Shown here in pieces: positions 56,258 through 58,947 of a stretch of 64,000 nucleotides of DNA (position 1 is its first letter; every line of letters begins with the position of its first letter). This stretch comes from a virus. Where the stretch lies: positions 32,001 to 96,000 of the IMG/VR virus record IMGVR_UViG_3300033418_000001. One strand, written 5' to 3'. The position numbers were made by a program, and so were the translations under genes. Below the pieces are notes generated by a model, which worked only from the letters and a program-made list of their open reading frames with translations, had not been told where the DNA came from and searched no databases.

Positions 56258-56646
56258 TGCTCGTCTTTTGCAGATGTCTGCACGGACCCGCCGATGGTCT
56301 TCACCGCGTCCAACTCGGTCTTGACGGGCGGGAACTCCACCTTCTCCACCCACAGCCACAACAGGTAGGCGCACGTCGCCGTCTTGTCCTCATGGCGAGG
56401 CTCCCACGACCGCAGGATCGACGCCACGTGCTTGTACGCCGCCTCGGCGCTGACGCCCTCCTTGGTGTAGAACAGCGTGCCCTGCGGCAGTCCTTCGAAG
56501 AACCACCGGTCCACGACCTTGCACCATGGGTCGGTGCCGTCGCAGAACCTTTCGGGGATGTCATCCGGCGGCAGCAGGGACCGCAACTCTTCCCCGTAGG
56601 CACCGAAGGCGCGAACCGCATCGGTGGTGACTCTTGGCATGAACAT
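56254..56646 (-). CDS. Hypothetical phage protein
   Basis: WFFEGL...SWEPRHEDK..TCAYL; CAAAGGAGTG RBS. Confidence 0.65.
   Translation of the reverse strand: MFMPRVTTDAVRAFGAYGEELRSLLPPDDIPERFCDGTDPWCKVVDRWFFEGLPQGTLFYTKEGVSAEAAYKHVASILRSWEPRHEDKTATCAYLLWLWVEKVEFPPVKTELDAVKTIGGSVQTSAKDEQ
56268..56283. repeat. 16-bp palindrome copy 17 (coding C-terminal tail, VQTSA)
   Basis: TTGCAGATGTCTGCAC. Confidence 0.95.
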
Positions 56647-56734
56647 CAGGCACTCCTTTGCTGACGATGGGATTGCCCCTTACGGGGGCAAGTCGCTTCT
56701 CCATGGCCACTTCACTGAAGACTCACTCTCCGAA

Positions 56735-57231
56735 GAGGGCTTGGTGGTATGCAGCGGTGGGGGAATCAGCAGTCCCGCATCCTCGGGTAGGCGGGGCATC
56801 AGCCCCTAACCACACTTCTAACCCTAAGACTCACCCTGTCTCGCGCTACCGGCATCCTTGTGGGACTCGATGTACCCACTAAGGAGGGCGTCTAGCTGCA
56901 CACTACCAAACCCACTTCGGAGAGCGGGGGGAGGCATCGTAGCTGATAGCCACCCCCACTCCGGTTTCCCCACGATCACTGAGCCTGAGACGAGAACGAT
57001 ATAAGACCGGTGTCCTGAGCCACTAGACGACCCCCCTGTGGTACGCGCTACGCCGCGCAGTGGCAGGAGGGGCGGGATTTGAACCCGCGTTTCCGATCAA
57101 GTTGTGGGCGAACTTGATCCTCAAAATCAGTGCCCACGTCCCAGTGTTCGTGCCTTACGATACCGATGTCTTGGCAATACGACAGTCAGTGACGACTACG
57201 CCAACGACAACGATAACGCTGCCAAGCCCTC
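56735..57231 (-). ncRNA. Putative ~500-nt structured RNA with circularly permuted tRNA-like domain (YrlA-like topology)
   Basis: Only long non-coding gap in the window; ends pair (GAGGGCTTGG/CCAAGCCCTC); internal T-arm+acceptor-CCA precedes acceptor 5' strand+D-arm. Confidence 0.7.
57005..57098 (-). ncRNA. Permuted tRNA-like module
   Basis: GATCGG-AAAC-GCGGG TTCAAAT CCCGC-CCCTCCT-G-CCA, 23-nt linker, AGGGGGG-TC-GTCTAGTGGCTCAGGAC-A-CCGGTC. Confidence 0.8.
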
Positions 57232-58002
57232 CTATGCCTTGAGCGGCGCGAGCAGGATCGCAACCACCTTGTCCGCGATCTTCTCGGTCACCGCTTCCGT
57301 TTCGTTCGCGCGCATCCGCGCCTGCTTGACCTCCACCATCAGGTCATCGACCACCTTGATGGCTTCGGCCTTTTGCAGCGCCGTGCACGCACCGCTTCGC
57401 TTGGTGATGGAGTTCTTCCCCACCACGATGTCCTTGTTCACCGCCGCCACCTGCGCCGGGTGCTTGTCCGTCGCCGGGGACATCTGCACCGGCACCGTGA
57501 CCTTCTCGGTCTTGGTGGTCTCGTCGGGGAACTTGGTCTCCCAGATGCCGACACCCAGATCGCCCGCCTTGACCCAGTGCTTGGTGGCATCGAGCGTCGG
57601 CATCTCGGCATACAGCGCCCGCAGACGCATCAGCCGCGCTTCCAGACCGAGCAGTTCATCCACCGGCAGGCCGGGGAGCAGCACGGTGCCGCGCCACATC
57701 ACGTCGCCCGTCGCCTTGCGATTGGTCGCGTTCTTCTGGTACTGAAGGTCTTCCGCCTTGGCGAAGATGTCGAGCGCGTAGGTGAGCGTGTCGAGGACCG
57801 TGGTGGTCACCGGCTTCTCTTCCCGCGCCGCCGCCTCGATGGCCGCGTTCTCGGGCGTGCCCTCGATCATGGTGAGGGACTTGCTGTGGCCTTCGAAGAA
57901 GTGACCGACGTTCTTGAACTTCTTCAGCGTGTCCTCGTACAGAGCATTCCACGCCCCGGTGGGCGTCTTCTCTGCGGCGAGCAGTTCGTGCAGCTTTGCC
58001 AT
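57232..58002 (-). CDS. Conserved coiled-coil protein adjacent to the ncRNA
   Basis: MAKLHELLAAEK...LPVDELLGLE...PTLD...ATDKHPAQV...QARMRAN; own promoter and RBS. Confidence 0.75.
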   Translation of the reverse strand: MAKLHELLAAEKTPTGAWNALYEDTLKKFKNVGHFFEGHSKSLTMIEGTPENAAIEAAAREEKPVTTTVLDTLTYALDIFAKAEDLQYQKNATNRKATGDVMWRGTVLLPGLPVDELLGLEARLMRLRALYAEMPTLDATKHWVKAGDLGVGIWETKFPDETTKTEKVTVPVQMSPATDKHPAQVAAVNKDIVVGKNSITKRSGACTALQKAEAIKVVDDLMVEVKQARMRANETEAVTEKIADKVVAILLAPLKA

Positions 58003-58042
58003 GGTTCTCACTCCTTTGGTTGGATGACGACAACGAGATGTG

Positions 58043-58070
58043 ATTCTACTACGTGTTTCCGAAGTGTCAA
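58043..58070 (-). promoter_or_regulatory. sigma70-type promoter of coiled-coil/ncRNA unit
   Basis: TTGACA-N16-TAGAAT. Confidence 0.75.
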
Positions 58071-58757
58071 CTACTCCTTCGGGGCAGGCAACTCGATGGG
58101 GGGCTTCTCCCCCTTCAGCACAGCAAGCCCAGTGCGAGACACGATGCTGCTGACGTAAGCCTCCACCTCGGTCTTGGCGTCCTCGGTGACCTTCTCCATG
58201 TGTTCTCCGAACTGCTCCGCGACGAACTTGACGGAGGAGGTTACACCATAGCCCGCCACCTCCAAGGCCATGAGGATTTCCTTCTTCGCCTTGGCCGACA
58301 GGCTAGTGCCCTCGATCATGGTCCGCACCTTGTCCAACCCCGCGTTGGTCTTGAGCAACGTCTTCTTCATCTCCACAGCGAACTGATCCTGCCGCCTCTC
58401 CGGTGGGGGCAAGCCCGGGATGTTGTAGTTGCCCTTCACGGCCAACAGAGTGCAGGGGGTGCCGCTGCCGACGTTGAGCGTGGAGATGAACGTGGCCCAC
58501 TGCGCCTCCGACATCTCCACCTCGGTGATGAGGCCGCGAGCGAAGTGCCAGTCCCGCGACAAGCTGCGATGCAACTCGCTGTGCTTGATTTCGATGCGGA
58601 TGGTGTTGTGGTGGGTGAAGTCGGAAGCGTACAACTGCGTTTGGCCACTCACCCGATGCGCGACGATCTGCGCGAAGGCCGGGTGCGTGGTCACCGTCTC
58701 CGACACCACGGAGGTGCCCTTCTCTGTGACGGGCTTCTCGATGGGCCGCATCGTCAC
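58071..58757 (-). CDS. Hypothetical phage protein
   Basis: HPAFAQI..HRVSG...LYASDF.H...EVEMSEAQWATFISTLNVGSGTPCTL. Confidence 0.7.
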   Translation of the reverse strand: MTMRPIEKPVTEKGTSVVSETVTTHPAFAQIVAHRVSGQTQLYASDFTHHNTIRIEIKHSELHRSLSRDWHFARGLITEVEMSEAQWATFISTLNVGSGTPCTLLAVKGNYNIPGLPPPERRQDQFAVEMKKTLLKTNAGLDKVRTMIEGTSLSAKAKKEILMALEVAGYGVTSSVKFVAEQFGEHMEKVTEDAKTEVEAYVSSIVSRTGLAVLKGEKPPIELPAPKE

Positions 58758-58947
58758 ACCACCCCTTCGTCAACCCACATCACGGTCTCCTCGGTCACCC
58801 GCTTGACGACGCGGACCTTCTTGAAGCCCTCCCGCACCTTCTTCTCCTTCGCGTAGCTGAGAGAGTCATCGAAGGTGGGGTACCACGGGCCGAGGTCGAA
58901 CCACACCCCGCTGCCGTTGGCTTGCGATTGGTACTTCGTCATCGTGG

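What the first reader, a model, noticed from the sequence alone, without database searches (positions are those of the whole stretch)
56735..58070. Coiled-coil protein + ~500-nt structured RNA operon: candidate ribonucleoprotein system
Seen: a promoter (58043..58070) precedes a 256-aa coiled-coil gene, and the non-coding region starts right at its stop codon. Its 5' end GAGGGCTTGG-CAGCG (57231 down) pairs with CGCTG-(7 nt)-CCAAGCCCTC (to 56735), closing a ~500-nt domain, followed by a GTAA-loop hairpin (~56673..56691). Flanking the tRNA-like core are tracts with ~6-nt periodicity: GCGTTA TCGTTG TCGTTG GCGTAG TCGTCA; TCGTTC TCGTCT CAGGCT CAGTGA TCGT; CAGGGT GAGTCT TAGGGT TAGAAG. Inference: each hexamer binds one subunit of an oligomer of the upstream protein, building an RNP that displays the tRNA mimic. 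This would be a Ro-independent analogue of Y-RNA RNPs, with a possible role in translation takeover or anti-defence.
Basis: partly seen in the sequence, partly recalled or inferred. Interest (0 to 1): 0.85.

Follow-up and report, generated by a model that had tools for sequence, protein, structure and literature searches.

The report
tRNA-mimic RNA beside phage DUF7873 gene

Summary
The locus is real and non-random. A near-consensus promoter (58070..58043, minus strand) drives a 256-aa DUF7873 gene. A structured non-coding RNA starts at its stop codon. Its conserved core is 57233..56919, not about 500 nt. A covariance model built from 18 relatives, without this window, hits exactly that stretch (167 bits, E 6e-54). 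The centre is a circularly permuted tRNA-like domain: T arm, 7-bp acceptor stem with encoded G-CCA, linker, D arm resembling tRNA-Glu, and a closing anticodon-type stem. It is flanked by UCGU-type hexamer tracts, and one tract also lies in the gene's 5' UTR. 74 of 80 related viral loci, 7 of 7 genome loci and cultured phages of six host genera carry such modules just downstream of DUF7873. The genome has no Ro60, tRNA, tmRNA, RtcB or RNA ligase. One metatranscriptome contig joins 56919 to 57037, the predicted RNase P site. I read it as a Ro-independent, YrlA-like tRNA-mimic RNA with a DUF7873 partner; binding is inferred, not shown. This scan has already found the same pair on many other genomes.

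The parts
58043..58070 (-). Sigma-70-type promoter TTGACA-16-TAGAAT
   Evidence: 11 of 12 matches. It is the only such site in 56300..58900; shuffles give a mean of 0.3.
58025..58036 (-). Tandem hexamer tract (TCGTTG TCGTCA) in the 5' UTR, a few bases upstream of the ribosome-binding site of the DUF7873 gene
   Evidence: It is one of only 5 such tandems in the 108-kb genome. A similar short tract lies at -45..-5 in 13 of 67 relatives, against 6.2% of control windows (p 2e-4).
57232..58002 (-). DUF7873 gene, 256 aa plus stop codon
   Evidence: PF25283, E 5e-62; 824 homologues, none named; AF2 pLDDT 92.7; homodimer model.
56919..57233 (-). Conserved core of the non-coding RNA (full-length match to model R1)
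   Evidence: the model was built from 18 relatives without this window; 167 bits, E 6e-54, the only hit in the window.
57219..57226 (-). Stem P1, 5' strand; pairs with 57177..57170
   Evidence: a 6-9 bp helix at the same place in 15 of 20 relatives, in at least 7 different sequence versions (compensatory changes).
57170..57177 (-). Stem P1, 3' strand
57190..57218 (-). 5' hexamer tract. Its first 8 nt (57218..57211) can pair with the linker 57165..57158.
   Evidence: for the tract. for the pairing: 7-8 of 8 pairs in most relatives, with A:U to G:C exchanges in 3 sequences.
57158..57165 (-). Conserved linker strand that pairs with the start of the 5' tract. This pairing crosses P1, so it is either a pseudoknot or an alternative fold.
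57093..57098 (-). Anticodon-type closing stem, 3' strand; pairs with 57010..57005. It is followed by a 4-nt variable loop.
   Evidence: all 6 pairs show changes on both sides; 96% of cells are paired.
57072..57088 (-). T arm: 5-bp stem and 7-nt T loop
   Evidence: 100% of cells paired.
57065..57071 (-). Acceptor stem, 3' strand
   Evidence: 7 of 7 pairs here; every pair covaries across 89 sequences.
57061..57064 (-). Discriminator G plus encoded CCA
   Evidence: CCA follows the discriminator in 63 of 98 modules.
57038..57060 (-). Linker that closes the acceptor stem (23 nt, with a small GC hairpin); predicted to be cut off
   Evidence: Length varies from 6 to 80 nt among relatives.
57031..57037 (-). 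Acceptor stem, 5' strand. 57037 is the predicted RNase P +1 position.
   Evidence: a metatranscriptome contig has a joint with one end at 57037, or 57038 because one letter is ambiguous.
57012..57028 (-). D arm with the GG of the D loop; resembles tRNA-Glu
   Evidence: the only E. coli match to 57037..57005 lies in a tRNA-Glu gene, 22 of 23 bases, E 0.6.
57005..57010 (-). Anticodon-type closing stem, 5' strand
56986..57004 (-). 3' hexamer tract, including the tandem at 56999..56988
   Evidence: conserved in relatives.
56927..56957 (-). Terminal hairpin of the core, with a conserved loop motif also seen in phiRSL1
   Evidence: helix 5: 83% of cells paired, all 6 pairs with compensatory change.
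56724..56926 (-). Lineage-specific long hairpin: a closing helix of about 30 bp and a branched tip.
   Evidence: z -6.8; pair probability about 1.0; only a short hairpin in L092/L093; no relative elsewhere; single copy in the genome.
56673..56691 (-). Hairpin with a 7-bp stem and a CGUAA loop, just before the ribosome-binding site of the next gene (ATG at 56646); no U tract

Best explanation
This is one copy, the single-headed form, of a widespread but undescribed phage module: the DUF7873 gene plus a co-transcribed, Y-RNA-like tRNA-mimic RNA.

Shown:
- The RNA core 57233..56919 is homologous to RNAs downstream of DUF7873 in many phages.
- Its centre is a circularly permuted tRNA-like fold with a 7-bp acceptor stem, an encoded G-CCA, a T arm and a tRNA-Glu-like D arm.
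- UCGU-type hexamer tracts flank that fold, and one tract lies in the gene's 5' UTR.

Inferred:
1. One transcript from the promoter at 58070 carries both the gene and the RNA.
2. Host RNase P cuts at 57038|57037, as it does in M. smegmatis YrlA. The linker is then trimmed back to CCA. This leaves two pieces held together by the acceptor stem and the closing stem.
3. The 3' end near 56919 is set by cleavage at the base of the long hairpin.
4. A DUF7873 homodimer binds the tracts on either side of the tRNA-like head. When in excess it also binds the tract in its own leader, which would balance protein against RNA.
5. The particle presents a tRNA acceptor/elbow without an anticodon to a host factor that binds tRNA. 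I cannot say whether it acts as a decoy or as a recruiter.
For: - Homology: a model built without the window hits it full length (167 bits, E 6e-54).
- Structure, on the model-fitted alignment: 28 of 28 pairs show compensatory change and 96.7% of cells are paired, against 60% in shuffles and 39-49% when partners are slid.
- Structure, on an unfitted MAFFT alignment: RNAalifold recovers the same stems on its own.
- Linkage: strict 7-of-7 acceptor modules occur in 74 of 80 viral loci, always on the gene's strand and downstream. There are 0 such hits upstream or on the other strand.
- Linkage elsewhere: 7 of 7 genome-contig loci; phiRSL1, a Klebsiella jumbo phage, and Rhizobium, Vibrio, Arthrobacter and Gordonia phages.
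- The neighbouring genes are not co-conserved with DUF7873.
- RNase P features: a 7-bp acceptor stem plus T arm, NCCA in 63 of 98 modules, and U8 in 95 of 98. The precedent is RNase P cleavage of M. smegmatis YrlA (PMC4201824).
- Ends: one metatranscriptome contig (run X19, depth 3.5) joins 56919 to 57037, which is exactly the predicted +1 position, and covers nothing else of the 1.8-kb stretch.
- Tracts: 3 of the 5 genomic tandem tracts lie in this locus, including the 5' UTR. The 5' UTR tract is enriched in relatives, 19% against 6%.
- Dimer: complex prediction score 0.71, best of 3 controls 0.00. That mark was reached by 20 of 30 proteins solved as pairs of one chain and by 1 of 23 solved as single chains. 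The runs share at least 97% of contacts and the partner's pLDDT is at least 89.
Against: - There are no binding, transcript-end or processing data for this phage.
- The joint rests on one low-depth contig from a run that the tool marks 'RNA? (probably DNA)'. It could be a reverse-transcription or assembly chimera, or a rare DNA duplication.
- DUF7873 is near neutral (pI 6.5 here, family median 6.2). It has no recognised RNA-binding fold; the best structural match is a protein of unknown function, 3kdq, Z 9.9.
- Only 19% of relatives show a tract in the leader.
- Part of the 5' tract is probably base-paired.
- CCA is not encoded in a third of the modules.
- No minus-strand terminator-like site was found in 56300..58900, so the RNA may simply remain part of a longer mRNA.
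- An earlier check within this scan priced the claim that the protein binds the RNA at 22 in 100.
Confidence: 0.45

Rival explanations
1. The RNA works on its own as a tRNA-mimic decoy or regulator, for example soaking up a host enzyme or toxin that recognises the tRNA acceptor end or elbow. On this view DUF7873 is linked by function, for instance by processing, modifying or using the RNA, or by acting in the same pathway, but does not form a stable particle with it.
For: The gene-RNA linkage is as strong as for the main explanation. The protein is near neutral and has no known RNA-binding fold. The module sits inside tRNA gene clusters in Rhizobium, Vibrio and Arthrobacter phages. The acceptor stem, CCA and tRNA-Glu-like D arm are kept, while the anticodon is absent.
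Against: It does not explain why the same tract occurs in the gene's leader and on both sides of the tRNA-like head. It does not explain why the gene and RNA stay in one transcription unit, in a fixed order, across very distant phages. No catalytic motif was recognised in DUF7873.
Confidence: 0.25
2. The structure is a cis-acting processing and stability element of the operon. The tRNA-like fold recruits RNase P, and the long hairpin recruits a double-strand RNase. Together they punctuate the polycistronic transcript and cap the 3' end of the DUF7873 mRNA. There is no function in trans.
For: No promoter-like site was found between the gene and the RNA, and no terminator-like site on the minus strand in 56300..58900. 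The RNA starts at the stop codon. A replication gene cluster follows on the same strand. The contig joint sits at the RNase P-type site and at the base of the long hairpin.
Against: A punctuation signal would not need about 315 nt of conserved sequence, conserved tracts, a conserved terminal-loop motif or one particular partner gene. The downstream genes differ from locus to locus while DUF7873 is constant. In L100/L104 an ORF lies between the gene and the RNA, yet the RNA is kept.
Confidence: 0.12
3. One reading: a domain of about 500 nt closed by pairing 57231.. with ..56735, on which each hexamer binds one subunit of a DUF7873 oligomer that displays the tRNA mimic.
For: The 12+5 nt complementarity exists and is at the upper end of what relatives show by chance. 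The hexamer tracts are real and specific to this locus.
Against: The helix has pair probability 0.000 and costs about 32 kcal/mol. Its 3' arm is used in a 30-bp local hairpin. Its 5' arm overlaps the covarying stem P1. The insertion that carries the 3' arm is missing in the nearest relatives. The third tract is not conserved. The protein model is a dimer. The first hexamers pair with the linker.
Confidence: 0.05
4. A tmRNA-like or chargeable two-piece RNA. After processing, the free CCA end is aminoacylated and the RNA enters the ribosome or delivers an amino acid.
For: The gene order is permuted as in two-piece tmRNA genes. It has an encoded NCCA, a 7-bp acceptor stem and a T arm. Short open frames run over the tracts.
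Against: ARAGORN and the Rfam tmRNA models find nothing. A G3:U70 pair occurs in none of 98 modules. No reading frame over the tracts is kept among relatives (read by eye). The full D arm is unlike tmRNA. Acceptor sequences vary freely.
Confidence: 0.05

Closest known systems
YrlA-class bacterial and phage Y RNAs with Ro60/Rsr (Chen et al. 2014, PMC4201824; Rfam RF02553)
   Same: The tRNA-like domain has the same permuted order: T arm, acceptor-type stem closed by a loop, D arm, and ends leaving through an anticodon-type stem. It is encoded next to its presumed protein partner. The M. smegmatis form has a 7-bp acceptor stem, is cut by RNase P and carries CCA.
   Different: There is no Ro60/TROVE gene in the genome. 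There is no match to any Rfam family, even at E up to 10. The GNCGAAN0-1G motif is absent. The partner is DUF7873, a protein of about 250 aa that shows no match to a known fold. The RNA also has hexamer tracts, stem P1 and a conserved terminal hairpin, and CCA is mostly encoded.
Two-piece (circularly permuted) tmRNA genes of alpha-proteobacteria and cyanobacteria (from general knowledge)
   Same: The acceptor 3' strand with CCA lies upstream of the acceptor 5' strand, joined by a linker that is removed to give two base-paired pieces.
   Different: It has no alanine identity pair, no conserved tag frame and no tmRNA model hit. It has a complete D arm. SmpB was not searched for.
Permuted tRNA genes of the red alga Cyanidioschyzon merolae (from general knowledge; cited in PMC4238349, listed)
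   Same: The 3' half of a tRNA is encoded upstream of the 5' half; a circular RNA intermediate is involved.
   Different: Here there is no anticodon loop to restore. The one joint seen links the two ends of the 3' piece only, which is not the joint that would rebuild a tRNA.
PDB 3kdq, conserved protein of unknown function from Corynebacterium diphtheriae
   Same: It is the best structural match to the DUF7873 model: Z 9.9, rmsd 7.0, 147 of 152 residues aligned, 18% identity.
   Different: It is shorter (152 aa) and its function is unknown, so it gives no lead to mechanism. Foldseek rates it at E 0.15.

Membership tests
DUF7873-linked tRNA-mimic RNA (unnamed; defined here by model R1) | Full-length match to a covariance model built from relatives without the query | tested here: met
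   167 bits, E 6e-54, model positions 1-290 of 290.
DUF7873-linked tRNA-mimic RNA (unnamed; defined here by model R1) | Lies downstream of a DUF7873 gene on the same strand | tested here: met
   the RNA starts at the stop codon. The same arrangement holds in 74 of 80 viral loci.
DUF7873-linked tRNA-mimic RNA (unnamed; defined here by model R1) | Permuted tRNA-like module with a 7-bp acceptor stem, T arm, D arm and closing stem | tested here: met
   The window has one module; 24 of 74 loci have two.
YrlA / bacterial Y RNA | Encoded near a Ro60 (TROVE) gene, whose protein binds it | tested here: not met
   no TROVE match in the 108-kb genome, which CheckV rates complete. The control genomes gave the expected matches.
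YrlA / bacterial Y RNA | Match to the Rfam model RF02553 | tested here: not met
   no Y RNA family appears, even at E up to 10.
YrlA / bacterial Y RNA | tRNA-like domain in the order T arm, loop-closed acceptor stem, D arm | tested here: met
   compared with the description in PMC4201824.
YrlA / bacterial Y RNA | Conserved GNCGAAN0-1G motif | tested here: not met
   no occurrence in 57233..56650.
YrlA / bacterial Y RNA | RNase P cleavage and CCA end (M. smegmatis type) | tested here: inconclusive
   The sequence features are present. One contig joint ends at the predicted site. There is no biochemical test.
tmRNA (one-piece or two-piece) | Detected by ARAGORN or by the Rfam tmRNA models | tested here: not met
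tmRNA (one-piece or two-piece) | G3:U70 alanine identity pair in the acceptor stem | tested here: not met
   G3:C70 here; no G:U at 3:70 in 98 modules.
tmRNA (one-piece or two-piece) | Conserved tag reading frame with a resume codon | tested here: not met
   The frames over the tracts are not kept among relatives (read by eye).
Canonical tRNA | Standard arm order with an anticodon loop | tested here: not met
   ARAGORN finds no tRNA in the window or in the whole genome. The module has no anticodon loop.
Pfam DUF7873 (PF25283) | Score above the curated cut-off over the full length | tested here: met
   210 bits against a cut-off of 27; residues 1-251 match profile positions 1-242 of 244.

The most novel reading that the evidence does not exclude
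DUF7873 and this RNA form a new, Ro-independent class of tRNA-mimic ribonucleoprotein. Host RNase P splits the RNA into two base-paired pieces with a free CCA end. The particle then acts on the host's tRNA-handling machinery, for example as a decoy for defence toxins that attack tRNA acceptor ends, or as an adaptor that redirects a tRNA-binding enzyme. The 119-nt 3' piece (57037..56919) may even exist as a circle.
Probability: 0.2. Interest if true: 0.85.

Novelty: new variant of a known kind. Interest (0 to 1): 0.62.

Why it matters
tRNA mimicry by non-coding RNAs is known in bacteria only for tmRNA and the Ro60-bound Y RNAs, and the role of the tRNA-like head of Y RNAs is still unclear. Here the same permuted tRNA-like design is tied to a different, uncharacterised protein. 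The pair occurs in phages of Proteobacteria and Actinobacteria, with a borderline module in a cyanophage, and often sits inside phage tRNA clusters. If the pair is a particle, it would be a second, independent protein partner for this RNA design. It would also give a tractable system for asking what an anticodon-less tRNA look-alike does during infection, because several carrier phages are in culture. In practical terms, the RNA is missing from Rfam, and small ORFs are annotated over it in some deposited genomes.

Tried and rejected
- ARAGORN and Rfam, at gathering scores and at E up to 10, gave nothing useful.
- blastn of the RNA against the phage and plasmid collections found no match.
- Foldseek against the PDB and BFVD found no match at E 0.001 or better. 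NCBIfam and PADLOC found nothing real. The ESM Atlas returned only DUF7873 clusters. A profile search of PDB sequences found nothing.
- Antisense-to-host-tmRNA idea for the tracts: dropped. The Klebsiella phage tracts do not match the enterobacterial tag region as I recall it. This rests on memory, not on a test.
- Small-peptide reading of the tracts: dropped. No frame is kept among relatives.
- The 3' extension 56940..56640 has no relative in any fetched locus and no second copy in the genome.
- RtcB, RNA ligase, CCA-adding enzyme, TROVE, tmRNA and tRNA genes were all sought in the 108-kb genome, and none was found.
- The look-up of sequencing runs listed no RNA holder of the whole stretch. 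Runs X18 and X20 held only diverged pieces of the coding region.
- Paper searches for 'DUF7873' and 'permuted tRNA-like' returned no papers.
- Column-wise counting of P1 on the MAFFT alignment failed because of register shifts. It was replaced by a per-sequence search.
Full report
**What is in the window.** All features lie on the minus strand. A near-consensus promoter, TTGACA-16-TAGAAT, sits at 58070..58043. It precedes a 256-aa gene, 58002..57235, which matches Pfam DUF7873 over its full length (E 5e-62). From the stop codon to the next start codon at 56646 there is no credible ORF. The stretch folds better than shuffles (z -4.5). ARAGORN finds no tRNA or tmRNA and Rfam finds no family. The window belongs to a 108,443-bp IMG/VR virus record that CheckV rates complete. 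Downstream on the same strand lie a primase, an SSB-like gene and a helicase.

**The tRNA-like core.** Read 5' to 3', the RNA has these elements:
- a closing-stem strand (57098..57093) and a 4-nt variable loop;
- a T arm (57088..57072);
- a 7-nt acceptor 3' strand (57071..57065), then discriminator G and CCA (57064..57061);
- a 23-nt linker;
- the matching acceptor 5' strand (57037..57031), then UC;
- a D arm with GG in its loop (57028..57012);
- the other closing-stem strand (57010..57005).

This is a tRNA opened at the anticodon and closed at the acceptor end, the same topology as YrlA Y RNAs (PMC4201824). The 5' half (57037..57005) has a single match in 5,426 E. coli genomes at E up to 10. 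That match lies in a tRNA-Glu gene, 22 of 23 bases, E 0.6. The head therefore looks Glu-like in its D arm, though the acceptor stem is different.

**Comparative evidence.**
- *Homologues.* DUF7873 has at least 824 homologues, none of them named.
- *Module scan.* I fetched 80 viral loci and scanned them with a strict pattern: T arm, 7 of 7 acceptor pairs, and a D arm with GG. 74 loci carry one module (50 loci) or two (24 loci). All modules are on the gene's strand and downstream. There were no such hits upstream or on the other strand.
- *Cultured phages.* The same is seen in phiRSL1, a Klebsiella jumbo phage, and Rhizobium, Vibrio, Arthrobacter and Gordonia phages. The Microcoleus cyanophage gave only a 6-of-7 candidate, a score that elsewhere was noise. 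In several of these phages the module sits inside the tRNA gene cluster.
- *Genome contigs.* All 7 loci found in genome contigs also have the RNA.
- *Homology of the window's RNA.* A covariance model built from 18 single-headed relatives, leaving out this window and its nearest relative, hits 57233..56919 full length. The score is 167 bits at E 6e-54, and it is the only hit in the window.
- *Covariation.* On 89 aligned matches, 96.7% of cells pair, against 60% in shuffles and 39-49% when partners are slid. All 28 pairs show compensatory change. That alignment is fitted to the model, but RNAalifold on a plain MAFFT alignment finds the same four stems.

**Other conserved parts.**
- *Stem P1.* P1 (57226..57219 with 57177..57170) recurs at the same place in 15 of 20 relatives, in at least seven sequence versions.
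- *Tract-linker pairing.* The start of the 5' hexamer tract (57218..57211) can pair with a conserved linker (57165..57158). This gives 7-8 of 8 pairs in most relatives, with A:U to G:C exchanges in three. The pairing crosses P1, so it is either a pseudoknot or an alternative fold.
- *Second tract and terminal hairpin.* A second tract follows the closing stem (57004..56986). The core ends in a hairpin (56957..56927) whose loop motif is shared with phiRSL1.
- *Tracts are specific to this locus.* UCGU occurs 9 times in the core against 1.2 expected. Tandem TCGTYN pairs occur five times in the whole genome, and three of them lie in this locus on the RNA strand: the gene's 5' UTR (58036..58025) and both sides of the tRNA-like head.
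- *5' UTR tract in relatives.* A short tract in the leader is present in 13 of 67 relatives, against 6.2% of control windows (p 2e-4). It is enriched, but present in a minority only.

The 12+5 nt complementarity is real, but the model fails on four counts:
- The 3' arm is part of a local hairpin, 56926..56724, with a closing helix of about 30 bp and z -6.8.
- In the ensemble of the whole region the local helix has pair probability about 1.0 and the long-range helix 0.000. Forcing the long-range helix costs about 32 kcal/mol.
- The nearest relatives, L092/L093 (76% protein identity), have only a short hairpin there. The roughly 190-nt insertion has no relative in any locus or collection searched.
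- The 5' arm overlaps P1.

The third 'tract' lies inside this insertion. The hairpin at 56691..56673 exists but has no U tract, and the scan over 56300..58900 found no terminator-like site on the minus strand.

**The protein.**
- The AF2 model is confident (pLDDT 92.7) and shows long helices plus a beta sheet.
- No known fold matches convincingly. The best match is 3kdq, a protein of unknown function, at Z 9.9.
- A homodimer is supported by the model: score 0.71, best of 3 controls 0.00. That mark was reached by 20 of 30 proteins solved as pairs of one chain and by 1 of 23 solved as single chains. The runs share at least 97% of contacts, and the partner's pLDDT is at least 89. This supports pairing in the model only; it does not show it.
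- The family is near neutral, with a median pI of 6.2. That is not what one expects of a strongly RNA-binding protein.

**A hint on processing.** Metatranscriptome run X19, from the same study as the likely source sample, holds one 167-nt contig at depth 3.5, flanked by adaptor remnants. In it, 57037 is joined to 56919 ('goes back 119'), and one letter is ambiguous. In RNA sense the 3' end at 56919 is joined to the 5' end at 57037, which is exactly the first base of the acceptor 5' strand, where RNase P should cut. The run covers nothing else of the 1.8-kb stretch. This fits a discrete 119-nt 3' piece whose ends were joined, either in the cell as a circle or during cDNA synthesis. It is a single observation from a run that the tool marks as possibly DNA, so I treat it as a lead. 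The phage has no RtcB, RNA ligase or CCA-adding enzyme, and no tRNA genes.

**Reading.** What is shown is a conserved gene-RNA pair and a YrlA-like tRNA mimic without Ro60. The mechanism is inferred by analogy with M. smegmatis YrlA and with autoregulated RNA-binding proteins:
- RNase P splits the RNA at the acceptor;
- the two pieces stay paired;
- a DUF7873 dimer binds the tracts and its own leader;
- the particle offers an anticodon-less tRNA shape to a host factor.

They are scored in their own sections.

**Novelty.** I found no paper or RNA family that describes the pair. This scan has already met it on many other genomes. An earlier internal check kept the observation but priced the claim of physical binding low. 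One possible prior mention (Burroughs and Aravind 2016) could not be read.

Noticed in passing
window 56724-56926 (minus strand): A lineage-specific hairpin of about 200 nt, with a closing helix of about 30 bp, is inserted into what is a short hairpin in the nearest relatives. It is a plausible double-strand-RNase processing stem.
   Followed up: partly
window 56919-57037 (minus strand): One metatranscriptome contig (run X19) joins 56919 to 57037. This is a unit of 119 nt read round by 131 nt, with adaptor remnants at both ends. It may be a circular RNA or an end-to-end cDNA chimera of the 3' piece.
   Followed up: partly
whole genome G000 (108,443 bp): The phage has no canonical tRNA gene at all (ARAGORN), so the tRNA mimic is the only tRNA-shaped RNA ARAGORN or my scans found. 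In Rhizobium, Vibrio and Arthrobacter phages the same module sits inside large tRNA clusters.
   Followed up: yes
L090 2797-3006 (Gordonia phage Ronaldo gene 125); L008 3431-3526 (Vibrio phage D517 VPHD517_0060): Small 'hypothetical protein' genes annotated in deposited phage genomes overlap the tRNA-like modules (L090 2962-3047; L008 3468-3544). They are probably mis-annotations over the RNA.
   Followed up: partly
L004 4343-4425: Right after a two-headed RNA, an AT-rich relative carries an 86-nt tRNA-Gly(TCC)-like gene with an unusually long insert between the anticodon arm and the T arm (ARAGORN listing).
   Followed up: no
L097 about 1600-1830: Downstream of the RNA, this relative has further T-arm, acceptor and CCA-like units in tandem. 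They may be extra degenerate modules.
   Followed up: no
L100 2250-2540 and L104: In these relatives an ORF of about 70 aa lies between the DUF7873 gene and the RNA, so direct abutment at the stop codon is not obligatory.
   Followed up: no
L002/L016 from 4146 (L002 coordinates): In this relative the gene after the RNA looks like a QueE-type radical SAM enzyme (7-deazaguanine pathway), judged by eye from its N-terminal motif. Downstream neighbours of the module differ from phage to phage.
   Followed up: no
window 57095-57124 (minus strand): A 9-bp hairpin with a 7-nt loop lies just 5' of the closing stem and shares four bases with it. It is kept in L092 and, with different sequence, in L010, L011 and L014, but is absent from shorter relatives. 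It may be a stacked extra arm or an alternative fold.
   Followed up: no
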